This document shows positions 1,398 to 40,411 of a stretch of 44,581 nucleotides of DNA, one piece after another (position 1 is the first letter of the stretch; each line of letters begins with the position of its first letter). This DNA is from a phage. The stretch lies in the sequence record PZ445532.1; one strand, 5' to 3'. The notes beneath the pieces were generated by a model, which was given only the letters and a program-made list of their open reading frames with translations, had not been told where the DNA came from and did no database searches. The position numbers and the translations under genes are program-made.

Positions 1398-2918
1398 ATG
1401 ACCGTTAACGTTGACAACCAGCACCCGCTCTATGCGCGCATCGCGCCAGAGTGGAAAATGATCCGTGACTGCGTAGCAGGGGAGCGCGCCGTGAAGGCGT
1501 GCGGCCCCTTGTACCTGCCACACCCCGCAAGCGGCGACACCACCGACCCGAAATCACGGGCACGGTATAAGGCATATAAGCAACGTGCTGTATTCCTGAA
1601 CGCCACCGCCCGCACACTGAATGCGCTGTTAGGGGTCGCCTTCGCCAAACCGGTGAGTATGGACCTTTCCGGGGCAATGGCTGACCTTATTGATGACGTT
1701 GACGGCAGCGGTATGCCGCTGGCGCAACTCCTGCGCGGTGCTATGTCTGAAGTTCTGCAATCAGGCCGTGCCGGGTTTATGGTCGACTACGACCGCCAGG
1801 CGCATTTTGACGAACTGGGTAACGTAGTACCGCAGACAGCCGCTGAAATGGCAGCACACCGCCCGCTTATCCGCCTGTATACGGCTGAACAGATCATTAA
1901 CTGGCGGCAGACCCACGGGGTCGACACGCTAATCGTGCTGAAGGAAACGGACGAAATCAGCACCGAAGACCCGGACGACTTCGCAAACCACGAGGTGACC
2001 ATCTGGACCGAGCTTCGCATGATTGAAGGCAAGGCACACGCCCGCCGCTGGTTTTACAATGCGGACACGTCAGAAGTGCAAATGGACTTGCCGCGGGGAT
2101 TCACCCGCACCGATCTTGTACCACTGGTGGATGCCTCCGGTAATGCGCTTACTCAACTGCCATTTTGCTGGTGTGGCGCGGTGGACAACAACGCGACACC
2201 GGACGCCGCACCACTGGCGGATATTGCATCCATCAACATTAAGCACTACAACGCCGAAGCAGACGTCGCCGAGATTGCGCACATCGTGGGTCAACCTACC
2301 CTCATTGCGACCGGCCTTACCCAGTCATGGGCGGACAAGAACCTGAAAGGCGGCATCGCGCTCGGGGCAACTAAGGGCGTTATCCTGGGCCAGAACATGG
2401 ACGCCAAACTGCTTCAGGCCGAAGAACGAAACCTATCGGTCGCACTGTGTGAACGCCGAGAGTTGCAAATGGCTAAACTGGGCGCGGCCCTTGTCGAGAA
2501 AGGGACCGCACCTAAGACGGCAACCGAGGCGGCTTATGATGCGCAGACTGATAACAGTATCCTGTCTCTGATTGCCGGTAACGTTGAGAAGGCTTTCAAC
2601 CGTGCGCTGCAAATTGTCCAGCTATTCACTGGTGACACCGCCGATCAGCGCGTAACGCTGAACAAGTTCTACACCGAAATCACGGTTGACGCGCAGCTTA
2701 TGACCGCAATGATGGCTGGTGTGCAGACCGGTACGGTCCGTCTGGCGGACTTTATCAAGTGGATGATGGCCCAGGGCGTTATTGACGACTCGCAAACCGT
2801 TGAGCAGGTGGAAGACGAATTGCGAAATCAGAATCCATTGCCTCAAATGTCCCCGGATGCGGTAGAATCTACCGAAGAAGACCCGGACAAGGTAGCGGAC
2901 AATGGCGAAGACAATTAA
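1398..2918 (+). CDS. portal protein
   Basis: 506-aa ORF directly after the large terminase. RBS AAGGAAA 6 nt upstream. Acidic C-terminus. Call rests on size and gene order. Confidence 0.8.
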   Translation: MTVNVDNQHPLYARIAPEWKMIRDCVAGERAVKACGPLYLPHPASGDTTDPKSRARYKAYKQRAVFLNATARTLNALLGVAFAKPVSMDLSGAMADLIDDVDGSGMPLAQLLRGAMSEVLQSGRAGFMVDYDRQAHFDELGNVVPQTAAEMAAHRPLIRLYTAEQIINWRQTHGVDTLIVLKETDEISTEDPDDFANHEVTIWTELRMIEGKAHARRWFYNADTSEVQMDLPRGFTRTDLVPLVDASGNALTQLPFCWCGAVDNNATPDAAPLADIASINIKHYNAEADVAEIAHIVGQPTLIATGLTQSWADKNLKGGIALGATKGVILGQNMDAKLLQAEERNLSVALCERRELQMAKLGAALVEKGTAPKTATEAAYDAQTDNSILSLIAGNVEKAFNRALQIVQLFTGDTADQRVTLNKFYTEITVDAQLMTAMMAGVQTGTVRLADFIKWMMAQGVIDDSQTVEQVEDELRNQNPLPQMSPDAVESTEEDPDKVADNGEDN

Positions 2919-4005
2919 TCAATATATGGCGGATCGAATGATCCGCCGACACATCTTCACCCAGCGCCTGAGCAATGACCAGGCGCGAAGGGTGCTGGCT
3001 ATGTGGGAGAAGTTCCGGCCTACGTTACTGGGAAAGCTGACTGAGTTGCTTGATGGCAAATCGTCAATGAACAACAAGGCACTTTCAACCCTGCTAACGC
3101 AACTCGACAAGACCGTTAAAACAGAACTGCGCACCGAGTTTAAGGCGTTGGCTGAAAGCCTTCAGGAGTTTGCCGACACCGAGGCCGATTATCTCGCCGA
3201 CACATTAACGGCAGCGATCCAGCCGGTGGTCGCCGTACCGGCGGTCGAGGTGGTTGGCGTAGTGACCGGTGCGCAGATCGCAGCGACGGCAATTAAAAAC
3301 CCGTTCCAGGGTAATACGATGATGCAATGGCCTGACTCACTTTCTGAGTGGACCAGGACGCAGATCGGCAATCAGGTGCGCGCCGGATTCATCCAGGGCA
3401 AGCCGACTATGGAAATTATTGCGGACGTGAGGCGCGCGCTCGGCGGTCGTAGTGCGCAAGCTATCTCGAGCGTTGTTAAATCCGCAGTAAACCACTATGC
3501 GGCGACTGCCCGCGAACTAATGGTAAAAGCAAATGACGATATTCTCGAAGGTCGCCAATGGTTATCTACATTGGACACGCATACTTCTCCCATGTGCCAG
3601 CTACGCGATCGCCTGTTTTATCCGGTTGATGTTACTCCCGACACCAAAGGAAAGCGCGGCGGGAAAGTGGTGGCTGGATCACAATATGGCGCTGGTCCAG
3701 GCAAGCTACATTATTGCTGCCGTTCGACGGAGACGTGGAAAGTCAAAGGTATGGAAGATTGGCCCAGTGGTAAGCGTCCGGCACTGAAGGCTGACGCGGG
3801 GCGATTGCTGAGTGAGCAGGTCGACGCGCAGACTGATTTCTTCTCATGGGTGCAGCGCCAGCCGCGCCATATCCTGGAGGAATTATACGGGGTGCAACGC
3901 GCCGACCAGATTATGCGCGGCGTGAAAGTCCCGAAGATGTTCACCGATTCCGGCGAACTAATGACTATCGCACAGCTTAAAAACCGGGGGTTATGGCGTG
4001 ATTAA
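2902..4005 (+). CDS. head morphogenesis protein (minor head protein, SPP1 gp7 / Mu F-like)
   Basis: 367-aa ORF overlapping the portal stop. Typical position after the portal gene. Confidence 0.6.
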   Translation: MAKTINQYMADRMIRRHIFTQRLSNDQARRVLAMWEKFRPTLLGKLTELLDGKSSMNNKALSTLLTQLDKTVKTELRTEFKALAESLQEFADTEADYLADTLTAAIQPVVAVPAVEVVGVVTGAQIAATAIKNPFQGNTMMQWPDSLSEWTRTQIGNQVRAGFIQGKPTMEIIADVRRALGGRSAQAISSVVKSAVNHYAATARELMVKANDDILEGRQWLSTLDTHTSPMCQLRDRLFYPVDVTPDTKGKRGGKVVAGSQYGAGPGKLHYCCRSTETWKVKGMEDWPSGKRPALKADAGRLLSEQVDAQTDFFSWVQRQPRHILEELYGVQRADQIMRGVKVPKMFTDSGELMTIAQLKNRGLWRD

Positions 4006-4327
4006 ATATGCGGCTATTGGACTGGTTATGGGTCTGGCGGTAGGATTCTGGCTAGGTGACTCCTACCGCGCTGGCGTAGTGGCGAAGGCGGCGCAAGAAG
4101 CGCAATCCCAAGCCCAACGGCAGCAAACTAAAGTAATTGAGCGCTCCGTGCAGGCAGAACAAGCCCGCGACGTGGAATACCGGACTATCACAAAAGAGGT
4201 TGTTAAATATGTTACGCGCCCTAACCGCCCTGATTGTAGTTTTGACGCTGAGCGCGTGCGGATCAAGCAGCGTGCCGTTGATGCCGCTAACGGAATCGGC
4301 ACTGCGACCGCCGTGCAAGTTCGATAA
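3998..4327 (+). CDS. i-spanin (Rz-like inner-membrane spanin component)
   Basis: GTG start. N-terminal transmembrane helix IGLVMGLAVGFWLG followed by a charged Gln/Ala-rich coiled-coil-like region. Overlapped in the +1 frame by a lipoprotein ORF. Confidence 0.6.
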   Translation: MIKYAAIGLVMGLAVGFWLGDSYRAGVVAKAAQEAQSQAQRQQTKVIERSVQAEQARDVEYRTITKEVVKYVTRPNRPDCSFDAERVRIKQRAVDAANGIGTATAVQVR

Positions 4328-4439
4328 CCCGTCTGCGGACCCCGACGAAGATTTGATGATTGACGTGAAAAATATGGAATGCGGGGCGAAGCTAAGGGCG
4401 CAGGTGCTGGAGTTGCAGCAAATAATTAAGGGGCCATAA
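4209..4439 (+). CDS. o-spanin (Rz1-like outer-membrane lipoprotein)
   Basis: 76-aa ORF in the +1 frame relative to the i-spanin. Signal peptide with lipobox LTLSAC|GSS, proline-rich mature part. RBS AAGAGG upstream. Confidence 0.62.
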   Translation: MLRALTALIVVLTLSACGSSSVPLMPLTESALRPPCKFDNPSADPDEDLMIDVKNMECGAKLRAQVLELQQIIKGP

Positions 4440-4451
4440 TGGCCCCTTTTT
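4430..4451. terminator. bidirectional rho-independent terminator
   Basis: GGGGCC-ATAAT-GGCCCC followed by TTTTT. The reverse complement is also followed by a T-rich tract. Sits between convergent genes. Confidence 0.7.
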
Positions 4452-4453
4452 CG

Positions 4454-5218
4454 TTAGCGCGGAATGCCGCAAATCTCGTTGAGTGTTTTCACATCCAGCG
4501 CCACCGCCGTGGATTTTGGCTTGTCCGGGTATGGGATGAATTGCTCAACTTCAGGCCATGCTTTAATCAGCTTCTTGTCAGTATTGTGCAGGTCCAGCAC
4601 ACCGGTAACGGTGAGTTTGAACGCGTCATACTTAGCACGCAACTCACGGCGGGCCTGGTCGTTACGGTCCAGGCGCTTACAGAAGTCATGGTCCGCAGGG
4701 TAATCTGCGCGACCGCGTGGGAGATATATCGGCAGCGCTTTCCCGTCCTCGTCCACTTCGCACACTGACGCGAGCATAACTGTCTCGAACCCCGGAACGA
4801 TATCGCCGAGATCAGGCGCGAGCTTATTCATATATTTCTCTTCCCAGTATCCGCGATGTACGCGGTATTGGTGACCGTCACCGCTCAAGGACAAGGTGCG
4901 AACATTTCCGCCTGCGTTGATTTCGAAAGTGGCGTCGTAAACGCTGCCGATACCTTTCGGGCGGTCGGTGTTATAACTATATGTCGCCTTGTTGGTATAT
5001 ACACTGACGCCGTACATCTGCGACGGGTCATCGACGATTGCGGCAATGCGCTCTAGTAGCTTGGCGAACGTGCGAATGCCTTCCGGCATACAGTCCAGCG
5101 TAATGGCATAAGCCAGGTCGCGCGAGTCCGTCATGATTTGTTTGGCTTCGGTTGCGATTTCGTGGTCGCGCAGGATGTTAGCCAGAATCTGATTTTTAAT
5201 GTCTTTAGTCAGTCTCAT
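4454..5218 (-). CDS. hypothetical protein (second gene of antisense cassette)
   Basis: 254-aa ORF. RBS GAGGA 7 nt upstream of the ATG. No recognisable motif. Co-oriented with the DnaN-like gene. Confidence 0.6.
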   Translation of the reverse strand: MRLTKDIKNQILANILRDHEIATEAKQIMTDSRDLAYAITLDCMPEGIRTFAKLLERIAAIVDDPSQMYGVSVYTNKATYSYNTDRPKGIGSVYDATFEINAGGNVRTLSLSGDGHQYRVHRGYWEEKYMNKLAPDLGDIVPGFETVMLASVCEVDEDGKALPIYLPRGRADYPADHDFCKRLDRNDQARRELRAKYDAFKLTVTGVLDLHNTDKKLIKAWPEVEQFIPYPDKPKSTAVALDVKTLNEICGIPR

Positions 5219-5299
5219 TTTTGTGTCCTCGTTGTTGGGGCTTTCGCCCCGTTTGGTTTAGTTAAACTTGATGTTGCCGCCAATAGGGTGCTTTGTTAG

Positions 5300-5818
5300 C
5301 TACAAACGCATCGGCATGATAACAAGGAAGGCACCGCCTTTGAACAGCACACGTGTCGCCTTGTCTACTCCCTGAAATTCCAGTTTTAAGCTATCAAACT
5401 TACGGTCGAACAATTTAGCAATTTTGCAGGCGTCGGACAGGTATACCCCGGCAAACCCTATAGCCTCCACTTTAGCGCTGTCGAAAGACGTAACACGACG
5501 CCAGTCTGGGAATCTGCCGTCTATGATCTCTACGGGTATGGTACCGATTAATACGTCTTTACTATCAAAGAACGCAGCGGATGTGCCGTCTATGTTGCAG
5601 TATTCGAATTTTGTAGGTAAGCGGCCTTTAATTGCTACTATTTTACTTTCACCTTCGGGAACAACCGCGGACCCGCAGAACAAACGATGACCGTCGGTGG
5701 CCACGATGAATCCTTTCTCGTCGAAAAATACACCATTCAGATAGTACCGCACGTCATTAGTTGCGGCGCACATCATAGCGGCTTTAAGATCGGCATAGTT
5801 AACTTTAATCATTGTCAT
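5300..5818 (-). CDS. truncated beta-sliding-clamp (DnaN) homologue, domain II plus C-terminal segment
   Basis: 172 aa from MTMIKVNY (internal start of the 5300..6259 ORF, RBS GAGGAA). Contains DVRYYLNGVFF, ATDGHRL, DGRFPDWRRV and C-terminal VIMPMRL. These match the conserved E. coli DnaN blocks DVRYYLNGMLF, ATDGHRLA, DGRFPDYRRV and C-terminal VVMPMRL (recalled from memory). Confidence 0.7.
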   Translation of the reverse strand: MTMIKVNYADLKAAMMCAATNDVRYYLNGVFFDEKGFIVATDGHRLFCGSAVVPEGESKIVAIKGRLPTKFEYCNIDGTSAAFFDSKDVLIGTIPVEIIDGRFPDWRRVTSFDSAKVEAIGFAGVYLSDACKIAKLFDRKFDSLKLEFQGVDKATRVLFKGGAFLVIMPMRL

Positions 5819-5960
5819 TTCCTCATGTTGGTGTGCAACCAATATACTGCAACCAACATACGCAATGCAAGCGAATTTTGCGATTATTTTTATCACTGAT
5901 AATATTAGAGGCGTGAAGTCGAGCGGGTGGCCCGCTCTGCCACAATCCCAGGGGGATAGC

Positions 5961-6662
5961 ATGAAACTTACTAAAGCAGAATATGACGCGTTGCCGGAAG
6001 GTATGAAGGCGCTTTTTGTCGCCGATGGTGATGGGTATAAATCAACGTTCATGACCGCCGAAGAAGTACAGGCGGAGATCAAGGGTCTGAAAGACAACAA
6101 CGCGAAGCTGGTTAGCGAGAAGAAAGCAGAAGCCGAACGCCGCGCCGAAGCTGAGCGCCTTGCGAAAGAGAAAGAGGAAGCCGCCGCGCGCAAAAATGGC
6201 GACCTCGAAGCGATCGACAAGTCCTGGAAAGATAAGTTTGCAAAACACGAAGCAGACACATCGGGAAAAATCGAAGCCTACCGCAAGCAGATCCACGATC
6301 TAACCATCGGCAGCGCTGCCAAAGACCTGGCGTCGAAGCTATTCGGTAAGAATGCGGGCATCATGCAACGCCACGTTATGGACCGCCTGACGCTGGAGGA
6401 CGGCGAAGACGGCAGCTTGAAGGTGCGCGTCCTGCAGGATGGCAAACCGTCCGCGCTAACTATGGAAGAGCTTGAAAAAGAGTTCCGTAATAACGCCGAT
6501 TTTGCATCCGTCCTGGCTGGCACGCCAGCCGGTGGTGCGCCGAGCAAACCGACGCATGTTGTCGAAGATGTGAAGTCGAAAATCTCTATGGGCCACAGCT
6601 TCGGCATCACCGATCTGACGAAACAGGCTGGTGAAATCATCGCTAAAATGGGCGACGAGTAA
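5961..6662 (+). CDS. head scaffolding protein (putative)
   Basis: 233 aa from MKLTKAEYD (RBS GGGGGA). Charged, Ala/Glu/Lys-rich coiled-coil-like sequence directly upstream of the major capsid gene. Confidence 0.55.
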   Translation: MKLTKAEYDALPEGMKALFVADGDGYKSTFMTAEEVQAEIKGLKDNNAKLVSEKKAEAERRAEAERLAKEKEEAAARKNGDLEAIDKSWKDKFAKHEADTSGKIEAYRKQIHDLTIGSAAKDLASKLFGKNAGIMQRHVMDRLTLEDGEDGSLKVRVLQDGKPSALTMEELEKEFRNNADFASVLAGTPAGGAPSKPTHVVEDVKSKISMGHSFGITDLTKQAGEIIAKMGDE

Positions 6663-6666
6663 GCAA

Positions 6667-6691
6667 ATTGCCCGCGAAAGCGGGCAATTTT
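6667..6691 (+). terminator. hairpin, possible attenuator between scaffold and capsid genes
   Basis: ATTGCCCGC-GAAA-GCGGGCAAT followed by TTTTG. Confidence 0.4.
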
Positions 6692-6759
6692 GCGAGCGCG
6701 TAAATCTAAGGTAACATTAACGGTACTGGGCGAATGCTCACAACTCAAAGGATTTCGAT

Positions 6760-7860
6760 ATGTCTTTAACAGTGTTCCAGCGTAAACTCGTCACCGCGGT
6801 TACGCAAATGATCCCCGACAACCTGAACGTGTTCAACGCTGCCGCTAACGGCGCTGTTGTTCTCGGCACGGGTGAAGTGCTGAAGGACGTTGTAGAAAAA
6901 ATGTCCGTAGGCTTGATCGCCAACCTCGTTACCGACCGTAACGCCTATGCCCCCGTCGGTACTCCGGCGACAGCAAAAGTGCTGGCGCGTATGCTGACCA
7001 ACTCCGTTAACCTGTCCGCGAAAGTGGGTCCGGTAGCAATCACTAAGGCTATGATGGCTAAAATCGAAACCAACGTTAACAGCGTTGCGGCTGAGATTGC
7101 GGCACAGGCTACTCAAGCGATTATGCTGCATTACCTGAAGGCTGGCATCGGCGCAAGTAAAGCGGCGATCGAGAGCAACGCAGCGGCAAAATACACCCAA
7201 CCGGCGCGCGTTGACGGCGTTGGCGGTCGTACCTTCCCGACCCTGGCAGACTTCCCGCTGGCGGCTTCTAAGTTCGGCGATCAGGCGTCTTTGATTAAGT
7301 CCTGGTTTATGGACGGCGTCACCTGGGCAAACTTCATTGCGTACCAGGCACTCCCTTCCGCTGAACAGGTATTCGCAATTGGCGATCTCCAGGTAATGGG
7401 TGATGGCCTGGGCCGTCGCTTCATTATCTCCGATGCCGCTGCCGATGCTATGGGCACGGGTAACATGCTGGGTCTGGTCCCTGGCGCGGTTGCAGTTACC
7501 ACCAACGGTCTTGATATGCTGGCGCAGGAGAAAGGCGGTAACGAGAACATCGAACGTTGGTGGCAGGGCGAGTTCGACTTCAACGTGGCGGTTAAAGGCT
7601 ATCGTCTGAAGGCGTCCGCACGTACTCCGGTCGAAGGTGTTCGCTCGTTCAAACTGTCCGACATCACCACTTCCGCTAACTGGGAACTGGACCAGGGCCA
7701 GGTAGACAACGCCCCTGCAACCGTGCAGGACGTTGGCGCTGTTGGTGATGGCGATACTAAAGGCCGTCGTAAGACCCAGGCCGCACAGGAAGTGCCGACC
7801 CGTCACATCAAGGAAACGGCGGGCGTACTGGTTACGCTGACTGCGACCAAAGCGTCCTGA
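6760..7860 (+). CDS. major capsid protein
   Basis: 366-aa ORF after the scaffold gene, followed by a strong terminator. RBS AAAGGA. Confidence 0.7.
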   Translation: MSLTVFQRKLVTAVTQMIPDNLNVFNAAANGAVVLGTGEVLKDVVEKMSVGLIANLVTDRNAYAPVGTPATAKVLARMLTNSVNLSAKVGPVAITKAMMAKIETNVNSVAAEIAAQATQAIMLHYLKAGIGASKAAIESNAAAKYTQPARVDGVGGRTFPTLADFPLAASKFGDQASLIKSWFMDGVTWANFIAYQALPSAEQVFAIGDLQVMGDGLGRRFIISDAAADAMGTGNMLGLVPGAVAVTTNGLDMLAQEKGGNENIERWWQGEFDFNVAVKGYRLKASARTPVEGVRSFKLSDITTSANWELDQGQVDNAPATVQDVGAVGDGDTKGRRKTQAAQEVPTRHIKETAGVLVTLTATKAS

Positions 7861-21973: not shown

Positions 21974-23734
21974 ATGGCAGCGGGTACACTATCCGTAACG
22001 AATAACAGCAAGGCGGTTGTCGGGGTAGGCACGACGTTTACCGCATTTAAAGCTGGCGACTTCTTAACGCTGGTGGTGGGGCAAGTCCCTTACACTGTTG
22101 CTATCGCGTCCGTCGAAAGCGACACCGCGCTTACGCTGGTGCTGCCGTTCGACGGCCCCACGGCAACCGGCCTTGCCTGGGATGGCGTTGCGCGCGATAC
22201 CATGTCGCTGGCAACGATGGGCGTAACAGTCCAGGCCCAAAAAGCATTGCGCTTGCTGATTGCAGATGAAAACAACTGGCGTGCAATCTTCGGCGACGCT
22301 GAAGAAATCACAGTGACTTTACCTAACGGGCAAGTTATGCAGGGTATGTCTTGGGGATACCTGTCGTCTTTGCTGAAGGAAGTCGACCCCGTTGAGATGC
22401 GCAACCTGCAACAACAAGCCGCCGCATCTGAAGACGCCGCGCAAGGATTTCGCAATGAGGCCGAAGGATTCAAGAATGAGACGGCTGGTATTCGCGACGC
22501 CACCAATCAGATTAAGGCGGATACGCAGGCGATCCACGACGCCACCGATGCGATCAAGACGCAAACCAACCAGATTAAGACTGATACGCAGGCTATAAAA
22601 GACCAGACCAACCAGATTAAGACGGATACTGGCGCTATTCGAGATCAGGCCAATACGGCGAAGACGGAAGCGCAAGCTGCCCGTGACGCCGCGCAGGGGT
22701 ATCGGAACGAGGCCGAACAATTTAAGAATGAGATTGACCCGTCGAAATTTCTGGCTAAGTCCAGCAACCTTAGCGACGTTGCTGACCCGGCGGCAGCGCG
22801 CGGGCACTTAGGCATCGGGACGACGGACACCCTTAACGTGGGCGGTCTGGTAACGTCCGGCGGTATCTCCGCGGGTCGTAACTCATGGGATGGATCTAAC
22901 TGGGGCAGTAAGAGTATTCTCGCCTCATTCGCTATCATATCCCCCGACGGAATCTCAACCCCTGGCTTATACGTGCGTAAATCCAATGGCGAGGCCGGTT
23001 ATGCCTCTGACTGGTTGTATTTTGAAAGCACGAATGCATGGGCCACTAAATCCAGTATTATTGGCGATCAGTTCCGATCCACTAAAGGCGCGATGGGATA
23101 TAACCAACTATGGTCGGAGGCTGTTGTACGAGCGGACCCATACACCGCGCAGGCCTACGCGGAAAACTTTCAGTCGTTAATCGCCGGTGCGTGTAAAACA
23201 CAAGGCATAGGCTACGAGGGCGGTGTTTCGTTTGGGATGATGACCACCGGTAACGACAACTGGCCCTGGGCACAGATCTCGATCGGCACAGCGGACCGTG
23301 ACTACGCGGGGAATATGGCTTCGTATATGCACTTCCGCTTTGACGACCAGGGGCGGATTTCTTACAGCGGGCCTGCGGGTGTTGGGTCGTTCCAGAAAGT
23401 ACCTGCGTCGGATCGCAACCTGAAACATGATATTGAAGATGACTCCAGCAGCACCGCCTACGACAATATCAAGGCTTTGCGGTTCCGTACGTTCGTATTC
23501 AACAACGATGAACAGGAACGGCAGCGTCGCGGTATTATTGCGCAGGAAGCGGAAGAAATAGACCCGCTGTACGTGAAGCATCGCGTGTATAACAACCAGG
23601 AATTAAATGGGCCACTAGTGCACCAGTTAGAACTAGACCCGACGCCGCTGTTACTTGATACTATGCGCGCATTGCAAGATACGATTAAGCAGGTGGAGGC
23701 GTTGAAAGCCGAGATCGCGGCGCTGAAGCAATAA
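21974..23734 (+). CDS. side tail fiber with C-terminal intramolecular chaperone (peptidase S74-like) domain
   Basis: 586 aa from MAAGTLSV (RBS TGAGGA). Repeats of the type IRDATNQIKADTQAIHDATDAIKTQTNQIKTDTQAIKDQTNQIKTDT. C-terminal SDRNLKHDI block resembles the self-cleaving chaperone domain of T5 pb1 / endosialidases. Confidence 0.8.
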   Translation: MAAGTLSVTNNSKAVVGVGTTFTAFKAGDFLTLVVGQVPYTVAIASVESDTALTLVLPFDGPTATGLAWDGVARDTMSLATMGVTVQAQKALRLLIADENNWRAIFGDAEEITVTLPNGQVMQGMSWGYLSSLLKEVDPVEMRNLQQQAAASEDAAQGFRNEAEGFKNETAGIRDATNQIKADTQAIHDATDAIKTQTNQIKTDTQAIKDQTNQIKTDTGAIRDQANTAKTEAQAARDAAQGYRNEAEQFKNEIDPSKFLAKSSNLSDVADPAAARGHLGIGTTDTLNVGGLVTSGGISAGRNSWDGSNWGSKSILASFAIISPDGISTPGLYVRKSNGEAGYASDWLYFESTNAWATKSSIIGDQFRSTKGAMGYNQLWSEAVVRADPYTAQAYAENFQSLIAGACKTQGIGYEGGVSFGMMTTGNDNWPWAQISIGTADRDYAGNMASYMHFRFDDQGRISYSGPAGVGSFQKVPASDRNLKHDIEDDSSSTAYDNIKALRFRTFVFNNDEQERQRRGIIAQEAEEIDPLYVKHRVYNNQELNGPLVHQLELDPTPLLLDTMRALQDTIKQVEALKAEIAALKQ

Positions 23735-23740
23735 GGCTAA

Positions 23741-23761
23741 GGGGCCATACGGCCCCTTTTT
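23741..23761. terminator. rho-independent terminator between convergent genes
   Basis: GGGGCC-ATAC-GGCCCC followed by TTTTT. Confidence 0.8.
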
Positions 23762-24335
23762 AGTTTGAGTTTTCCCAGTCCATTTTGCGCCGCACCAGCG
23801 GGCTTTCGTAATATTCCTTCCCATCCACCTCCACTAAGGGCCAGTCATTAACGATGACGTAAGGCTCTGCGATATCCTCGATCACGCCGTGCGCGCTATG
23901 TTGTCCGAAATCTACGCCCACCAGGATAACCCCGGCAACGCGACGAGTGAGATACTCGCGAGCGCAACGTGCCTCGACCAGTCCTCGACGTATGCCGCTA
24001 GTGGCTTTAACCTCGTAGGTCCATACGGCATCGATCACATGCTCGCGGAAGTCGGGGCCGGATTTAGCCTTACGCTTTCCAACCATGATAATATCGCCGC
24101 GGTCGATAGTGTTAGCGCTAAACAGGCCGGTACGCATTAGCAAACCTTGCGGGATGCAACTACGCCCGCCTGCCTGCCCTTCGAGGTACATTCCTGCAAA
24201 CATTTCGCCCAGCACACCGACAAGGCGACTTTGCTTGCAAGCGTCGGACTTATACCTCCACTGGTCAAACTCGATGCTTGCGATCATTGCCGCAAGGTGG
24301 AATTGTTTACCGGTTATTTCATATTCGCCGTACAT
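23760..24335 (-). CDS. hypothetical protein (possible PD-(D/E)xK-like motif)
   Basis: 191-aa ORF, RBS GAGGGA. GDIIMVG ... TYEVKAT could be a D...ExK nuclease motif. Weak. Confidence 0.5.
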   Translation of the reverse strand: MYGEYEITGKQFHLAAMIASIEFDQWRYKSDACKQSRLVGVLGEMFAGMYLEGQAGGRSCIPQGLLMRTGLFSANTIDRGDIIMVGKRKAKSGPDFREHVIDAVWTYEVKATSGIRRGLVEARCAREYLTRRVAGVILVGVDFGQHSAHGVIEDIAEPYVIVNDWPLVEVDGKEYYESPLVRRKMDWENSN

Positions 24336-24377
24336 TGTGGGTCCCTCATTGCTGCGGGCCGAAGCCCGCGATTAGAA

Positions 24378-24932
24378 TTATTTAAGTGCGCCAGTCACCA
24401 GTGTTTTTTCCATGTTGCGGAAATCTTCCTGCGTCATGCAGATTTTCGATCCGTCTTCGCCGGTGAGCACGACCGTAGGCTGGAATTCTTGGCCTGCAAT
24501 GCCGAACTTAGCGGCTTTAACCATCTTGCCGAACGAGGCCACCGTATCTTCTGCAACGCGAATTGCGCTGTTATACGCATTAATCTCGCCGTCAAGACGC
24601 ACGGACAGATCTTTTAGGCTTTCAAACTGTTCTGCCGTTGTATCGATCTGAATCTCGTCATGCACGGTCATGTAAGACTCGCCCAGCAGGGCGGCATACG
24701 CTACCAGGTCAACGATGTTATCTTCCTGGTGCTTACGGTGCTGGCGCACCAGCTTCAGGCAGATCAGGAAGGTCCAGGCTTCTTGCTCGGACAGGTCGCG
24801 CCCGGTAAGCGCGTTAAACACGGCGGCGATCTGTTTAGCGCTGCGTTCTTCTTTCGCGTTGTCATAGCCGTTTTCTTTCCCGCGCTGTTCCATAGTGGTA
24901 GCGGCGTTTTTGCAGTATTCGTATGCTTTCAT
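24378..24932 (-). CDS. hypothetical protein
   Basis: 184-aa ORF. N-terminal block RGKENGY...IAAVFNALTGRDL...LKLVRQHR looks like a conserved phage domain of unknown function. Confidence 0.55.
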   Translation of the reverse strand: MKAYEYCKNAATTMEQRGKENGYDNAKEERSAKQIAAVFNALTGRDLSEQEAWTFLICLKLVRQHRKHQEDNIVDLVAYAALLGESYMTVHDEIQIDTTAEQFESLKDLSVRLDGEINAYNSAIRVAEDTVASFGKMVKAAKFGIAGQEFQPTVVLTGEDGSKICMTQEDFRNMEKTLVTGALK

Positions 24933-24996
24933 GATGTTTTCCTTTTTAGTGGGAGGCGGTATTGCCTCCCGATGTGGTTAAGATACTGCAACCAAC

Positions 24997-25467
24997 CTAT
25001 TGGTTGCAAGTGAATTTTGCAACGTTTATTGCGTAAATTTTCGGGACTAAATCGCCGCACGCCCGACGAATTGCCGCGATGTTCTTCGGACAGTCTTCAA
25101 TGATGACCAGTTCCGATACGTCCGCATAGCAGACCATTTTGAACACAGCGCACGCCTTAAACTCTGGCGGCGGGGTATCGTCCAGCATGTGGCGCATAAA
25201 CAACCGGCCTGTAGGGAATACTTCCAGTTGTTCGGCGGTGGTGTCCCAACATTCTCGCTGCCGGTTGGTCAGATACGCGATCTCGAAGCCTTGCTCTTTG
25301 TACATGGTCAGCAGCAGCAGCATATCCATGTTAAGGTCTTCGCGGACGTGCGCCTTGTGCCACTTCGCCCAGAAGGTGGATTTAGTTTTTATACCCGGCA
25401 CCAGGTCGGCACGCGCATCGCTTGAACCGTTAATAACTCCATCCAAATCGCAAATCAGTAATTTCAT
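24997..25467 (-). CDS. HAD-superfamily hydrolase (putative phosphatase/nucleotidase)
   Basis: N-terminal LICDLDGVI matches HAD motif I (DxDG). Confidence 0.55.
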   Translation of the reverse strand: MKLLICDLDGVINGSSDARADLVPGIKTKSTFWAKWHKAHVREDLNMDMLLLLTMYKEQGFEIAYLTNRQRECWDTTAEQLEVFPTGRLFMRHMLDDTPPPEFKACAVFKMVCYADVSELVIIEDCPKNIAAIRRACGDLVPKIYAINVAKFTCNQ

Positions 25468-37308: not shown

Positions 37309-39573
37309 ATGAGCTTAATTAAATTCGCTGTAACAAGGCCCGCTAAAAAAGGCGAAAAAGCCAGGGCGGAAAACTTCCAGATGACCACCGATGAATTTTT
37401 CGAATTTATCAAAGATGCGAAAGAAATATCCTCGGTGCACATCAACAAGACGGAAGATAAAGCCGAGTATGCGCGCCGCAAGCGTAAGGCCGACGGCATC
37501 GTGGCGTATACCAGTGACGGATTGCGTCGTAAGACCAGTGCGGTGGACCGCTCGATCCTGTTCTTCGATATTGACCGCACCGACACCCGCACCCTACGCC
37601 GCTGCCGTAAGGCGTTCACTGACGCGGGGCTGGAACACGTATTCCACACCACAACCGGCGACCGTCACCCATTGAAAGGCGGCACGCGTTGCGCTCGATT
37701 CCTGGTGCTCACTGACAAGCCTGTACCGGCTGAAGACCTGGGCCGCGTCCAGTATGCACTATTACACCAACTGGGTCTGTCAGATGTGGACTTCGACGAT
37801 TGCACGAAAGACACAAACCGCCTGATGTACCTGCCACACCAGCAGTCTGTTATTAAGTGCCACTATGGCAAGCGCGCACGCGTACGTCGTCTGCTCCGCC
37901 TGGCTGACAAGCTGGGAGTTGAGAAAGAGGAAGTCCGTCGCGAACTGACCCCGGGCGACGACGCAGTGGCAGACGGCATTCTGGACTGGTGCTTCCAGGC
38001 AGGATTCGAGGAGTTATCTTCCGGGCGGGGCTATGAAGTGCCGTGCCCGAACGAACATCTGCACAGCGGCGAAGGGTCCACCGCTATTATGGTCAAGGAT
38101 GGCGAGATCCGTTTCAAGTGTATGCACACCGGCAACGAGTGTTGCTCGGAACTGAATAGACACCAGCACCTGGCGCTGCGTCTTATCGGGATCCCGGACC
38201 ACCTGAACGTCGAGCCACACAATATGTCCCGTAAGCAAATCGCCGCCATCCTTCCGGGGCTGGACGACGAGGAAGTCGAATCCTTATATGAACATATTGT
38301 TGATGCGGTTGGCGACGGCGAAGAATACGGCGTGTGCACCGATGCGGATCTGGATAACGAGCCGGTTGCGCTGTTCAGTAAGCACGACCCGATTATCGAG
38401 GGGTTGATTAACTTTAAATCGACCTGGTACATGGCGGGTGAGTCGAATATCGGTAAGTCTTTCTACGTGCTGGGCCAGATGGGCGCGGTTGCCGCGGGTA
38501 TTCCGTTTGGTGGCGCGAAGGTCGTCCAGTCTCATTGCTTCTATTTCGACGCGGAAGGTGGCGAAGCCTCCAACCAGCGTAAAGAAGCATTGCAGATTAA
38601 ATATGAGCACGACCTGGACAAGCTGCACATTATCGATCTGCAGTCACGCGGCTGGGATATCACCAGCAAATCGGGCTTGCGCGAAGTTATCAGCTTTATC
38701 AACCGCACCGCTAACGGCGAACCGGTTGGCCTGGTGGCGTTCGACTCACTAAACCAGACTGTTGCGTTGCGGTCCGCCGAGGCTAAACCGTTCGACGAGA
38801 ACAACGCCAGCGATATGGGTGAAGTGGTCAAAGCGCTGAAGGCCATCGCGGAAAATACAGGTGGCAGTGCGGGCGTCATCCACCACCCGGCTAAAGGTGC
38901 AAACGGCAGCAGAACGCCACGCGGGTCCGGCGCGCTGCATGGTGCTGTCGATTCTGCGTTCTTCCTGGAACAGCCGGACGACAACCAGCCCGGACAATTG
39001 AACCTGTATCACGAAAAGTCACGTAACGGCATCAAGCAAGCGCCGCGCGGCTTCGTCCTGCTCAAGTGCAAGGTGAAGGTGGATCTCCGCAAGTCAGAAG
39101 CGTTCGAGGCGCACCAGTCCACCAGCACCGGGCCAGACTTCGGCGACGTGGTTGCCGGATGGGACGTCAAGCCGATTGCCTCCACGCCACGCGACGAGAC
39201 TCTCTACCTCGTACCGGTTGCCCTGGCACCGTTCGCTATTGAACAGGCGAAGGCGGCGGGCAAGGCCGCGGTTAAGGAAGAGAACACCGCCGGACCGCGC
39301 AACGAAAAAGAGAAAGTGCTTTATGCGGCACTGGAAAAACTGATGGAAGATAACCCGTACCATACTGGATTCAGTAAATCGGCAATTGTCCGCCAGGCGG
39401 GACTCGCAAAAGGTGGCACTTCGACGAAGGCAATCGACGATATGGTGGAGCGCGGGGTAATAGGTTTTTATACAGATCCGCACACCGGGGCCATCTATGG
39501 GTCTTCTAATTTGGTCATCAAATCGGATATCCCTATCACGCTTTCCGCGACCGATGACGATTTAAAAGATTAA
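37309..39573 (+). CDS. DNA primase-helicase (primase domain fused to RecA-like NTPase)
   Basis: 754 aa. Cys/His-rich segment CPNEHLHSGEG...FKCMHTGNECC. Walker A GESNIGKS and Walker B-like LVAFDSLNQ in the C-terminal half. Confidence 0.8.
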   Translation: MSLIKFAVTRPAKKGEKARAENFQMTTDEFFEFIKDAKEISSVHINKTEDKAEYARRKRKADGIVAYTSDGLRRKTSAVDRSILFFDIDRTDTRTLRRCRKAFTDAGLEHVFHTTTGDRHPLKGGTRCARFLVLTDKPVPAEDLGRVQYALLHQLGLSDVDFDDCTKDTNRLMYLPHQQSVIKCHYGKRARVRRLLRLADKLGVEKEEVRRELTPGDDAVADGILDWCFQAGFEELSSGRGYEVPCPNEHLHSGEGSTAIMVKDGEIRFKCMHTGNECCSELNRHQHLALRLIGIPDHLNVEPHNMSRKQIAAILPGLDDEEVESLYEHIVDAVGDGEEYGVCTDADLDNEPVALFSKHDPIIEGLINFKSTWYMAGESNIGKSFYVLGQMGAVAAGIPFGGAKVVQSHCFYFDAEGGEASNQRKEALQIKYEHDLDKLHIIDLQSRGWDITSKSGLREVISFINRTANGEPVGLVAFDSLNQTVALRSAEAKPFDENNASDMGEVVKALKAIAENTGGSAGVIHHPAKGANGSRTPRGSGALHGAVDSAFFLEQPDDNQPGQLNLYHEKSRNGIKQAPRGFVLLKCKVKVDLRKSEAFEAHQSTSTGPDFGDVVAGWDVKPIASTPRDETLYLVPVALAPFAIEQAKAAGKAAVKEENTAGPRNEKEKVLYAALEKLMEDNPYHTGFSKSAIVRQAGLAKGGTSTKAIDDMVERGVIGFYTDPHTGAIYGSSNLVIKSDIPITLSATDDDLKD

Positions 39574-39690
39574 ATTCTGCGCGCATTGGTTGCCGATATG
39601 GTAATTCCCATATCGGTGAATGATTAAATTTTGCGCGCATTGGTTGCCATTTTGAGTGTTTTTACCTGGTCGTATTGGTTGCCGTGTAGT
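39574..39690. repeat. three direct repeats of GCGCATTGGTTGCC plus a perfect 9-bp inverted repeat
   Basis: TTGGTTGCC at 39586, 39640 and 39675. The first two copies sit in a 23-bp direct repeat TAAATT[CT]TGCGCGCATTGGTTGCC. Inverted repeat CCGATATGG-TAATTC-CCATATCGG at 39593..39616. Confidence 0.8.
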
Positions 39691-39890: not shown

Positions 39891-40105
39891 CATAAAATCC
39901 AGGATGCACGACGCACGGCAGCATGATGCAAATTGCGGTCGTCGATGAACTAGGCAACCAATGCGAGTTGCAGAATGGTGGGTGGAAAATGCAGTTTGCA
40001 GTCACAGCAGATAGCGATCGACTTTTTCATGCGCGTGATTAATATTGGTTGCATTCGCCCTGGCACACTGCTATATTGGTTGCACACCAACATGAGGACT
40101 GAACA

Positions 40106-40411
40106 ATGAAAGCATTAATCTGGAATTACACAATGGCGGTGGCGAAGCTGTACGAAGCGAAGCACACAAACGGCAACGCAGACGACGCGCGCCAGGTTGT
40201 TATCCTGGCCCAGCAGGGAATCATGAACGCGTTCGACGATATGTTTGCCAGCCTGGACGAACTGGAACCGCTGCGCGTGGCAATCTGCGAATATGCGATG
40301 GCTTTTGCCCGCGAGCGCCTGGCGTATCGCTTCGGGATCGGTGAGACGGCAGTGACAAACGTCGCTCGTATTAAAGCCCAGCGCGAACTATTCGCCCAGC
40401 TTGCAAAATAA
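40106..40411 (+). CDS. hypothetical protein
   Basis: 101-aa ORF preceded by the 27-bp leader shared with the DnaN-like gene. Confidence 0.55.
   Translation: MKALIWNYTMAVAKLYEAKHTNGNADDARQVVILAQQGIMNAFDDMFASLDELEPLRVAICEYAMAFARERLAYRFGIGETAVTNVARIKAQRELFAQLAK

What the first reader, a model, noticed from the sequence alone, without database searches (positions are those of the whole stretch)
5300..5818. Phage-encoded fragment of the beta sliding clamp (DnaN domain II plus C-terminal tail)
The 172-aa protein carries the most conserved DnaN blocks (DVRYYLNG, ATDGHRL, DGRFPDWRRV, C-terminal MPMRL) but is under half the length of a bacterial clamp. It lacks domain I and most of domain III. The C-terminal residues and the domain II/III junction form the partner-binding cleft of the clamp, so the fragment could mimic that cleft and sequester clamp-binding proteins, or poison host clamp dimers. 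It is transcribed against the surrounding structural genes, which suggests independent regulation.
Basis: partly seen in the sequence, partly recalled or inferred. Interest (0 to 1): 0.85.

Follow-up and report, generated by a model that had tools for sequence, protein, structure and literature searches.

The report
Phage mini sliding-clamp: binding pocket only
This coliphage carries a real, conserved 170-residue cut-down copy of the bacterial DNA sliding clamp that keeps the clamp's partner-binding pocket but lacks the parts needed to form a ring, so it most likely captures host replication and repair proteins early in infection; this has never been tested.

Summary
Window 5300-5818 (minus strand) encodes a 170-172 aa homologue of the beta sliding clamp DnaN. 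The likely start is ATG 5812.

It is not a decayed fragment. It belongs to a large family of uniformly short phage and prophage proteins (PHROG 3007, wrongly labelled 'RusA-like resolvase'), and the frame is under purifying selection (dN/dS 0.15-0.27).

Domain I and the first half of domain III, which form the ring-closing dimer interface, are absent. Across 130 distant relatives, 9 of the 12 near-invariant positions are pocket residues.

The gene has its own sigma70-type promoter, shared with another early-region gene. In Dhillonviruses it sits in a swappable accessory slot. In other phages it lies in early or replication modules.

Best reading: a non-ring pocket module that binds clamp-binding motifs, acting as a decoy or possibly an adaptor. 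Poisoning of host clamp dimers is unlikely. The family was already annotated; the pocket-only reading seems undescribed.

The parts
5300..5818 (-). Mini-clamp CDS. The stop codon is at 5300-5302. The ORF starts at ATG 5818 (172 aa), but the probable true start is ATG 5812 (170 aa, 18.8 kDa, pI 8.3).
5820..5824 (-). Shine-Dalgarno sequence GAGGA. It lies 7 nt upstream of ATG 5812 and 1 nt upstream of ATG 5818.
   Evidence: Read directly from the sequence. Homologues are 170 aa.
5841..5870 (-). Candidate sigma70-type promoter of the mini-clamp/Nmad5 unit: -35 TTGCAT (5870-5865), 18-nt spacer, -10 TATATT (5846-5841).
   Evidence: Read from the sequence. The simple scanner missed it. The same architecture, TTGGTTGCAT-N17-TATATT, occurs at 40045-40077 and 26671. 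This is inference, not a mapped transcription start.
5820..5846 (-). A 27-nt block, TATATTGGTTGCACACCAACATGAGGA, comprising the -10 element, a 5'UTR with the TTGGT..ACCAA inverted repeat, and the SD. An identical copy lies at 40072-40098 (+).
   Evidence: Alignment A2 and the motif listing.
5834..5856 (-). Two tandem copies, 14 nt apart, of the phage-wide motif TTGGTTGCA, overlapping the promoter.
   Evidence: 12 exact copies in the window. With up to 1 mismatch there are 25 copies against 11.4 +/- 3.2 in shuffles. The direct repeat is D1.
4454..5218 (-). Downstream gene on the same strand: an Nmad5-domain protein of 254 aa. It is a separate cassette, not an obligatory partner of the mini-clamp.
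   Evidence: Pfam PF18757 at E 1e-57. The cassette (window 4459-5293) is precisely absent in relatives L018 and L021, which keep the mini-clamp. Nmad5 is the gene whose K216E mutation lets Dhillonviruses escape Tmn defence (PMC11846954).
4428..4448 (.). Bidirectional intrinsic-terminator-like hairpin (9-bp stem) between the convergent Rz/Rz1 genes and Nmad5. It closes the minus-strand unit.
   Evidence: Terminator scan.
5921..5937 (.). Perfect hairpin GAGCGGG-cca-CCCGCTC in the divergent intergenic region between the mini-clamp and the scaffold gene. Its role is unknown.
   Evidence: Read from the sequence.
5961..6662 (+). Divergently transcribed head scaffolding gene. With the capsid gene at 6760-7860 it shows that the mini-clamp unit is embedded antisense in the head module.
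   Evidence: PHROG 206 at E 2e-50. ORF list.
3998..4439 (+). Rz-like spanin (3998-4327) with an embedded Rz1-type lipoprotein frame. This is the plus-strand flank on the other side.
   Evidence: PHROG 2536 at E 5e-36. ORF list. EP23 annotation.
40045..40411 (+). Paralogous promoter and 5'UTR (TTGGTTGCAT-N17-TATATT plus the identical 27-nt block) driving a 101-aa gene of unknown function (phrog_9839) downstream of the helicase-primase gene.

Best explanation
The gene encodes a stand-alone 'pocket module' of the bacterial beta sliding clamp.

It consists of three of the twelve beta-alpha-beta-beta-beta units of a clamp ring: both halves of domain II and the second half of domain III. In DnaN these three units lie next to one another and together build the hydrophobic cleft that binds clamp-binding motifs (consensus QLxLF or QLxLxF). 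The protein lacks domain I and the first half of domain III, so it cannot close a ring with itself in the DnaN manner or with a host clamp subunit.

It is transcribed from its own sigma70-type promoter of the family that also drives early and DNA-metabolism genes.

Proposed mechanism (inferred, not shown): early in infection the soluble protein binds the clamp-binding motifs of host proteins and competes with DNA-loaded host clamps for them. Candidate clients are the delta subunit of the clamp loader, Pol III alpha and epsilon, Hda, Pol II/IV/V, and MutS/MutL. This would divert or shut down host clamp-dependent replication and repair to the phage's benefit.

What is shown: homology, fold, which parts are kept and which are lost, selective conservation of the pocket, the accessory status of the gene, and its early or replication-module contexts.

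What is inferred: peptide binding, the monomeric state, the identity of the clients, and the benefit to the phage.
For: 1. Homology and fold:
- Family profile against E. coli DnaN, E 5.7e-26.
- AF2 pLDDT 93.1, pTM 0.89.
- Foldseek alignments span about 255 columns. That means they run from domain II to the DnaN C-terminus and skip 60-85 residues.

2. What is retained:
- The C-terminal unit matches DnaN 313-366, including IGFN..Y and MPMRL.
- All 18 pocket residues listed in PMC11139829 fall in DnaN 152-247 and 320-365, the retained segments.

3. Selective conservation:
- In 130 representatives with mean column identity of 19%, the 12 columns at 90% or more are D22, R24, Y26, L27, G29, T41, G43, H44, P104, Y126, M168 and P169.
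- Nine of these are pocket residues (P 1.6e-8).
- Mean conservation is 0.75 for pocket positions against 0.37 elsewhere.

4. What is lost:
- There is no counterpart of I272/L273, the residues whose mutation makes beta monomeric, or of domain I.
- The second inner helix of domain II is not predicted.

5. Biochemical precedent: monomeric beta binds delta about 50 times more tightly than the ring does.

6. It is a real gene:
- dN/dS is 0.15-0.27.
- There are 440 close homologues of 165-193 aa.
- The best 150 representative clusters are mostly short and full-length, with no fusions.

7. It is an accessory gene in early contexts:
- In most Dhillonviruses an unrelated gene replaces it between conserved flanks.
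- In lambdoid prophages it sits between cII and the O-like/DnaB-like replication genes: 17 of 79 IMG/VR loci, plus the prophages.
- In other prophages it sits in the early-left operon next to xis/int.
- In one virus its start overlaps the stop of a helicase gene, upstream of a primase.

8. It has its own promoter, shared with an early-region gene.
Against: - No binding was tested, and no complex could be modelled with these tools.
- A general sponge for Pol III would harm phages that depend on host Pol III. Sf11 and the lambdoid prophages carry the gene but have no DNA polymerase gene in the regions examined. Selectivity for particular clients, or an adaptor role, would therefore be needed.
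- The pocket motifs are also the most conserved blocks of DnaN in general. Their retention could partly reflect fold constraints rather than ligand binding.
- R176 and M364 are not conserved in the wider family.
- The window protein has Ala where most members and DnaN have Asn320.
- The placement of the third unit next to domain II's first half rests on alignment lengths and topology. Neither fold tool printed residue-level superpositions.
- The oligomeric state is unknown.
Confidence: 0.42

Rival explanations
1. Adaptor rather than decoy. The pocket binds a host replisome component, such as Pol III alpha/epsilon or the clamp loader. Another surface binds the phage helicase, primase or initiator. 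The host polymerase is thereby recruited or coupled to phage replication forks that are built on a non-host helicase.
For: - The gene is embedded in replication modules. In lambdoid prophages the order is cII, mini-clamp, O-like initiator, DnaB-like helicase. In L022 its start overlaps the stop of a helicase gene and a primase lies downstream.
- It is carried by phages with no DNA polymerase of their own (Sf11), for which a pure Pol III sponge would be self-defeating.
- A Serratia prophage with the gene also encodes a Pol III theta homologue. This shows that phages do carry holoenzyme accessory mimics.
Against: - The carriers share no common phage partner. They have different helicase and primase families, and some have their own PolA (EP23, Bcep781).
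- In Dhillonviruses the gene is dispensable and swappable.
- In many virulent phages it is a lone antisense gene among structural genes.
- Only the pocket stands out as a conserved surface.
Confidence: 0.22
2. An alternative clamp. Subunits pair through their exposed half-domain and edge strands, for example as a dyad-symmetric tetramer of 4 x 3 = 12 units. The assembly forms a ring or C-shape that acts as a processivity or transcription factor. Comparable cases are herpesvirus UL44, the role of T4 gp45 in late transcription, and Mu using the host clamp for late genes.
For: - A clamp domain is itself a pseudo-dimer of two half-domains, so two copies of the orphan half-domain could in principle pair (structural reasoning).
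- The gene sits next to late-gene promoter regions in several virulent phages.
- Clamps have precedents in phage late transcription (PMC12867686, listed).
Against: - The canonical ring-closing interface is absent.
- One of the three channel-lining helices is missing.
- The pI of 8.3 is only mildly basic.
- The gene is accessory in Dhillonviruses, whereas a late-transcription or processivity factor would be a core gene.
- In temperate phages it lies in early operons.
- Oligomers could not be modelled here.
Confidence: 0.07
3. Functional partner of the neighbouring Nmad5 protein. The clamp-like subunit would tether or regulate a DNA-modification or DNA-acting enzyme on DNA.
For: - In the window and in EP23 the two genes form one minus-strand unit with a single promoter and terminator.
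- Nmad5 is described as associated with nucleotide modification. It is toxic when cloned, and it determines sensitivity to the Tmn defence.
Against: The two genes assort independently:
- Relatives L018 and L021 keep a mini-clamp that is 98-99% identical but lack the Nmad5 cassette precisely.
- Most Dhillonviruses keep Nmad5 with an unrelated gene in the mini-clamp slot.
- Among the 79 IMG/VR loci surveyed, no locus outside the Dhillonvirus group has Nmad5 next to the mini-clamp, and only one of the four Dhillonvirus loci does.
- No clamp-binding motif was found in Nmad5.
Confidence: 0.04
4. Poison subunit. The fragment pairs with a host DnaN protomer and blocks ring closure.
For: The protein is homologous to DnaN and has the same fold.
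Against: - The DnaN dimer interface is made by domain I and the first half of domain III, including I272/L273. Neither is present.
- The free edges of the mini-clamp correspond to surfaces that are buried within a single DnaN chain, so host DnaN offers no free partner for them (structural reasoning).
Confidence: 0.03
5. Either a non-functional remnant of a captured dnaN gene, or a RusA-like Holliday-junction resolvase as RefSeq and PHROG label it.
For: - GenBank notes such as 'DNA Pol III b subunit fragment'.
- PHROG 3007 carries the label 'RusA-like Holliday junction resolvase'.
Against: - Family length is uniform across hundreds of clusters.
- dN/dS is 0.15-0.27.
- The predicted fold is confident and compact.
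- Pfam returned no RusA match at E up to 1.
- Bcep781 has a separate, genuine RusA (gp22) alongside its mini-clamp (gp15).
Confidence: 0.01

Closest known systems
Bacterial beta sliding clamp DnaN (TIGR00663; Pfam PF00712, PF02767, PF02768)
   Same: - Same four pocket-lining motifs and the same C-terminal MPMRL.
- Pocket residues R152, L155, T172, G174, H175, P242, Y323, M362 and P363 are conserved in at least 90% of the family.
   Different: - 170 aa instead of about 366: three of the six half-domains of a protomer.
- No domain I, no first half of domain III, and therefore no dimer interface.
- The second inner helix of domain II is missing.
- Basic (pI 8.3) rather than acidic (pI 5.25).
- Scores below the curated family thresholds.
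Monomeric E. coli beta variant I272A/L273A (laboratory construct)
   Same: A non-ring clamp that still presents the pocket. It binds the clamp-loader delta subunit about 50 times more tightly than the ring does, and it cannot support processive synthesis (PMC11139829).
   Different: It is an engineered full-length protein with all three domains. The phage protein is a natural, evolved, minimal version.
E. coli beta* (UV-inducible short form of DnaN, domains II-III; from my own recollection of Skaliter/Paz-Elizur/Livneh 1996, not checked here)
   Same: An N-terminally shortened clamp that starts near the domain I/II boundary, as the phage protein does.
   Different: Beta* keeps the whole of domain III and was reported to act as an oligomeric clamp. 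The phage protein lacks half of domain III and is encoded by a separate gene.
Herpesvirus processivity factors UL42, UL44, BMRF1 and PF-8
   Different: They have two full domains and a strongly basic DNA-binding face, are essential core replication genes, and show no sequence homology to DnaN.
Phage proteins that target the host clamp system (Twort Gp168 bound to the clamp, PDB 7evp; N4 gp8 against delta; P1 Hot as a theta mimic; the last two from my own knowledge)
   Same: Early phage accessory proteins directed at the Pol III holoenzyme. Hot is a precedent for a phage copy of a holoenzyme subunit. A Serratia prophage carries a theta homologue together with a mini-clamp.
   Different: Gp168 and gp8 are unrelated inhibitors that bind the clamp or the loader. 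The mini-clamp is itself a clamp derivative and would act by imitation.
PHROG 3007 and the GenBank entries 'DNA polymerase III beta subunit' of EP23, Bcep781 gp15, and Sf11- and IME207-like phages
   Same: The window protein is a full-length member (E 2e-56).
   Different: None as to family. The family's database name, 'RusA-like Holliday junction resolvase', is wrong, and no function has been shown.

Membership tests
Beta sliding clamp DnaN (TIGR00663 equivalog) | Three clamp-fold domains, about 366 aa | tested here: not met
   170-172 aa. The model has one full domain plus one half-domain.
Beta sliding clamp DnaN (TIGR00663 equivalog) | Score at or above the curated cut-off | tested here: not met
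   28.8 bits against a cut-off of 137.65.
Beta sliding clamp DnaN | Head-to-tail dimer interface (domain I with the first half of domain III, including I272/L273) that closes the ring | tested here: not met
   No residues align to domain I or to DnaN 253-312 once the C-terminal unit is assigned to 313-366. Interface residues are taken from PMC11139829.
Beta sliding clamp DnaN | Peptide-binding pocket (subsites I and II) | tested here: met
   17 of the 18 listed pocket residues could be mapped. Nine of them are at least 90% conserved across 130 distant members. Actual binding was not tested.
Beta sliding clamp DnaN | Clamp (processivity) fold | tested here: met
   [not shown]
Beta sliding clamp DnaN | Encircles DNA after loading by the clamp loader and confers processivity | not testable with these tools
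   Needs biochemistry. The missing interface and missing helix argue against it.
Pfam PF02767 DNA_pol3_beta_2 | Gathering threshold of 27 bits | tested here: not met
   24.4 bits, matching residues 15-59 only. Some relatives pass: Bcep781 gp15 scores 28.0, and several homologues carry a precomputed PF02767 hit.
PHROG 3007 (short phage clamp-like proteins) | Full-length match to the family profile | tested here: met
   E 2.1e-56, residues 3-172 on profile positions 2-186 of 190.
RusA Holliday-junction resolvase (the name attached to PHROG 3007 and to RefSeq EP23p08) | Sequence similarity to the RusA family | tested here: not met
   [not shown]
Herpesvirus-type non-ring processivity factor | Two complete clamp-fold domains with a strongly basic DNA-binding face | tested here: not met
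   [not shown]
Nmad5-linked DNA-modification system | Obligatory co-occurrence with Nmad5 | tested here: not met
   Nmad5 is absent next to near-identical mini-clamps in L018 and L021, and absent from all non-Dhillonvirus contexts.
Known anti-phage defence components (PADLOC) | Match to any defence-system model | tested here: not met
   No hit at E up to 0.1.

The most novel reading that the evidence does not exclude
The protein is the first example of a viral decoy of the sliding clamp's interaction hub. It would be a soluble pocket 'sponge' that titrates host clamp-binding proteins away from DNA-loaded clamps, for example free delta, Hda, translesion polymerases or MutL. It would be deployed as an exchangeable early accessory gene by many unrelated phages of Proteobacteria. 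A still more unusual variant, not excluded by the evidence, is that four copies assemble into a dyad-symmetric twelve-unit ring with pockets on both faces.
Probability: 0.3. Interest if true: 0.8.

Novelty: new variant of a known kind. Interest (0 to 1): 0.58.

Why it matters
The clamp's peptide-binding pocket is the hub through which replication, repair, mismatch correction and initiation control are coordinated in bacteria. It is also an antibiotic target.

A natural, minimal, probably monomeric protein that keeps only this pocket would matter in three ways:
1. It would show a new route of host takeover: imitation of the hub rather than inhibition of it.
2. It would give a compact scaffold for studying or screening clamp-binding motifs and pocket inhibitors.
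3. It would show which clamp clients matter to phages.

The family is widespread and wrongly named in PHROG and RefSeq, so correcting the label has practical value for phage annotation. The locus also lies next to Nmad5, a known determinant of sensitivity to the Tmn defence, in a two-slot accessory region of Dhillonviruses that are used in phage-engineering work.

Tried and rejected
- **Clamp-binding motifs in neighbouring proteins.** I scanned Nmad5, the ParB/KorB-like protein, small ORFs, the O-like initiator and the DnaB-like helicase. The only hit was QMHLSL inside the ParB helix-turn-helix region, probably incidental.
- **Clamp-binding motifs across the window.** I scanned all long ORFs. 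The only hit was QDDLM near the C-terminus of a 504-aa protein. Neither scan gave a convincing phage-encoded ligand.
- **PADLOC defence models.** No hit.
- **Literature.** Searches for a characterised short phage clamp and a check of the accessory-gene screen preprint found nothing on this family. The Iyer et al. 2013 paper that defined Nmad5 is not held.
- **My own gene-calling on 79 IMG/VR loci.** It was too noisy because of long antisense ORFs. I replaced it with tblastn against reference neighbours.
- **Domain fusions as a clue to partners.** None among the best 150 representative clusters. The one long homologue, P0112 (269 aa), is a frameshift artefact.
- **E. coli complete genomes.** Searching with the prophage copy gave no match at DNA level.
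- **A diverged mini-clamp allele in most Dhillonviruses.** Rejected. The replacement gene (phrog_24635) is unrelated.
- **Homo-oligomer or peptide-complex modelling.** Not attempted.
Full report
**What is there.**
The window is a Dhillonvirus genome. Its closest relatives are Shigella phage EP23 (92.5% DNA identity over 4400-6700) and Escherichia phage AV129 (97.7% protein identity for the target).

On the minus strand, 5300-5818 is an ORF of 172 codons carrying the blocks DVRYYLNG, ATDGHRL, DGRFPDWRRV and a C-terminal MPMRL. GAGGA at 5824-5820 lies 7 nt before the second ATG (5812) and only 1 nt before the first (5818). Database homologues are 170 aa and the EP23 CDS is 513 nt. The product therefore most likely starts at 5812.

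The gene is followed on the same strand by an Nmad5-domain gene (4454-5218; Pfam E 1e-57). The pair lies antisense between the Rz/Rz1 spanin genes (3998-4439, +) and the scaffold (5961-6662, +) and capsid (6760-7860, +) genes.

**Is it a DnaN relative, and is it a gene?**
- phmmer against PDB sequences gives E 1e-8 to 3e-8 to beta clamps, aligning residues 12-116 to E. coli DnaN 140-254.
- A profile of 55 family members hits E. coli DnaN at E 5.7e-26.
- Curated thresholds are not reached: PF02767 scores 24.4 against 27, and TIGR00663 scores 28.8 against 137.65. This fits a protein of half the normal length.
- The protein is a full-length member of PHROG 3007 (E 2e-56).
- A search of 5.8 billion proteins found 440 relatives, and those listed are 165-193 aa.
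- An exhaustive profile search of 1.84 billion representatives found 2877 hits at E 1e-10 or better. The best 150 are nearly all 165-210 aa, full-length and without fusions.
- Among Dhillonvirus alleles dN/dS is 0.15-0.27.

It is therefore a stable, selected family and not a decaying fragment.

**Anatomy.**
AlphaFold2 with the family alignment gives pLDDT 93.1 and pTM 0.89. The model has three units:
- beta-alpha-beta-beta-beta, residues 4-50;
- beta-(no helix)-beta-beta-beta, residues 59-99;
- after the GRFPDWRRV linker, alpha-beta-beta-beta, residues 124-167.

At sequence level the last 56 residues match DnaN 313-366 (IGFN..Y.LD ... VVMPMRL). This is an independent HMM domain at E 1e-7. The pairwise score is 48, against 10 for DnaN 249-312. 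Because the two halves of a clamp domain are homologous, part of the unit also aligns weakly to the first half (NEKFRGVRL).

The protein is therefore domain II plus the second half of domain III.

From the pocket composition in the review PMC11139829, the first half of domain II (T172-L177) and the second half of domain III (N320, Y323, V360-R365) must be spatial neighbours in DnaN. The three retained units thus form one contiguous quarter of a ring centred on the pocket. This last step is my inference from alignment lengths and clamp topology; neither fold tool printed residue-level superpositions.

**What is kept and what is lost.**
The review lists the pocket residues:
- subsite I: R152, L155, T172, G174, H175, R176, L177, P242, R246, V247, V360, M362;
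- subsite II: H175, N320, Y323, V344, M362, P363, M364, R365.

All lie in the retained segments.

In an alignment of 130 representatives with mean column identity of only 19%, the columns conserved at 90% or more are D22, R24, Y26, L27, G29, T41, G43, H44, P104, Y126, M168 and P169. Nine of these twelve are pocket residues (hypergeometric P 1.6e-8). Mean conservation is 0.75 at pocket positions against 0.37 elsewhere (Mann-Whitney P 2e-7).

The elements that close the ring have no counterpart: domain I, and the first half of domain III with I272/L273, whose mutation makes beta monomeric. One of the three expected channel-lining helices is also not predicted.

The protein is mildly basic (pI 8.3, against 5.25 for DnaN).

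**Regulation.**
A bidirectional terminator-like hairpin (4428-4448) separates the convergent Rz/Rz1 and Nmad5 genes.

Upstream of the mini-clamp, TTGCAT (5870-5865), an 18-nt spacer and TATATT (5846-5841) form a sigma70-type promoter candidate. The 27-nt block TATATTGGTTGCACACCAACATGAGGA (-10, 5'UTR, SD) is identical to a block at 40072-40098. That copy is preceded by TTGGTTGCAT-N17 and drives a 101-aa gene downstream of the helicase-primase gene.

The 9-mer TTGGTTGCA occurs 12 times exactly in the window, and the count allowing one mismatch exceeded all 100 shuffles. It often forms TTGGTTGCAT-N17-TATATT in the DNA-metabolism region. The unit therefore appears to belong to a phage promoter family separate from the surrounding head genes. 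Early timing is inferred, not measured.

**Genomic contexts elsewhere.**

*Within Dhillonviruses* the locus is a two-slot accessory region:
- In most genomes (for example JLBYU60) window 5282-5826 is replaced by an unrelated gene (phrog_24635), while the flanks stay 91-96% identical.
- Only 8 of 159 DNA-matching records cover at least 80% of the 4400-6700 query, and 16 records carry a close protein homologue of 80% identity or more.
- Relatives L018 and L021 keep a 98-99% identical mini-clamp but lack the Nmad5 cassette (window 4459-5293) precisely.

*Among 79 IMG/VR loci*:

| Context | Loci |
|---|---|
| Antisense island with a ParB/KorB-like gene between tail/lipoprotein and capsid genes (Sf11/Cedarrivervirus type) | 36 |
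| Between cII and the O-like/DnaB-like replication genes of lambdoid phages (also prophages) | 17 |
| Lone antisense gene between spanin and head genes (phage Ivi type) | 9 |
| Dhillonvirus | 4 |
| Other | 13 |

*Further contexts:*
- Start overlapping the stop of a helicase gene, upstream of a primase (L022).
- Next to a CI/LexA-like repressor and an exonuclease (L024).
- Downstream of BstA (L050).
- In the early-left operon beside xis/int of prophages in Serratia and on Salmonella and Klebsiella plasmids.
- Alone among head genes in Bcep781 and among tail genes in a Proteus phage.

Carriers include phages with their own PolA (EP23, Bcep781) and phages without any DNA polymerase (Sf11).

BFVD holds many further short clamp-like phage proteins of 163-266 aa.

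**Interpretation.**
The pocket is the feature under the strongest selection, and the ring-forming parts are gone. The most economical reading is a non-ring module that binds clamp-binding motifs.

Monomeric beta binds the delta subunit about 50-fold more tightly than the ring and cannot support processive synthesis. A soluble pocket would therefore compete with DNA-loaded clamps for their clients.

Its accessory, swappable status in Dhillonviruses and its place in early, host-directed operons of temperate phages fit a host-takeover decoy.

Its frequent position inside replication modules, and its presence in polymerase-less phages, keep an adaptor role alive. In that role it would recruit host Pol III or the loader to a phage helicase.

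I found no phage-encoded ligand with a canonical motif. The client is therefore probably a host protein, and its identity is open.

Three ideas are weakened or rejected:
- Poisoning of host clamp dimers is unlikely for lack of an interface.
- A functional pairing with Nmad5 is contradicted by their independent assortment.
- The 'RusA-like resolvase' label is an annotation error.

**Comparison and novelty.**
The existence of the gene is already recorded in GenBank as 'DNA polymerase III beta subunit' or 'fragment'. I found no functional or structural study in the searchable literature.

It fails the defining features of DnaN membership: three domains, the dimer interface and the curated score. 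It keeps the fold and the pocket. I therefore rate it a new variant of a known kind, with moderate-to-high interest. The mechanism is testable with simple biochemistry and phage genetics.

Noticed in passing
window 5834-5856, 21947, 24987-25008, 26671, 36772, 40045-40084, 40608, 43492 (both strands): The 9-mer TTGGTTGCA occurs 12 times exactly, where about 0.3 would be expected. It often forms TTGGTTGCAT-N17-TATATT. This looks like the extended -35 element of a phage-specific promoter family, or an operator, controlling early and DNA-metabolism genes.
   Followed up: partly
window 39570-39690 (+): Three iteron-like repeats, 'ttaaatt(t)tgcgcgcaTTGGTTGCC', lie in the intergenic region just after the helicase-primase gene (37309-39573). 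This may be an origin of replication or an early control region.
   Followed up: no
window 4454-5218 (-): The Nmad5 gene is the homologue of the Dhillonvirus gene whose K216E substitution gives escape from the Tmn defence (PMC11846954). The window protein has K216 (DKKLIK). The cassette is cleanly absent from some near-identical relatives (L018, L021).
   Followed up: partly
window 5282-5826, compared with L010 (JLBYU60) 2360-2728: In most Dhillonviruses the mini-clamp slot holds an unrelated gene of about 109 aa and unknown function (phrog_24635) behind the same promoter and 5'UTR. Together with the Nmad5 slot this makes a two-slot accessory hot spot inside the head-gene cluster.
   Followed up: partly
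PHROG 3007; RefSeq EP23p08, Sf11 gp69, pYD38-A VPRG_00008, Bcep781-15: The family name 'RusA-like Holliday junction resolvase' is an annotation error that has spread into RefSeq phage records. The proteins are clamp derivatives, and Bcep781 has a separate true RusA (gp22).
   Followed up: yes
window 3998-4439 (+): The Rz/Rz1 spanin pair sits between the head-morphogenesis gene and the scaffold gene. In the EP23 map the holin-endolysin cassette lies far away at the other end of the genome.
   Followed up: no
L016/L017 (Serratia prophage) 1017-1369 and 6001-6534: One prophage carries both a homologue of the Pol III theta subunit (PF06440, like phage P1 Hot) and a mini-clamp in its early-left operon. 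That makes two imitations of holoenzyme accessory subunits in one phage.
   Followed up: no
L009 (Sf11) 23400-25453; L004 (pYD38-A) 1827-3765; 36 IMG/VR loci: In Cedarrivervirus- and Roufvirus-type phages the mini-clamp is the last gene of a conserved antisense island that starts with a phrog_1273 protein and a ParB/KorB-like protein. Whether these proteins work together is unknown.
   Followed up: no
window 5921-5937: A perfect 7-bp hairpin, GAGCGGG-cca-CCCGCTC, lies in the divergent region between the mini-clamp and the scaffold gene. No T-run follows it on either strand.
   Followed up: no
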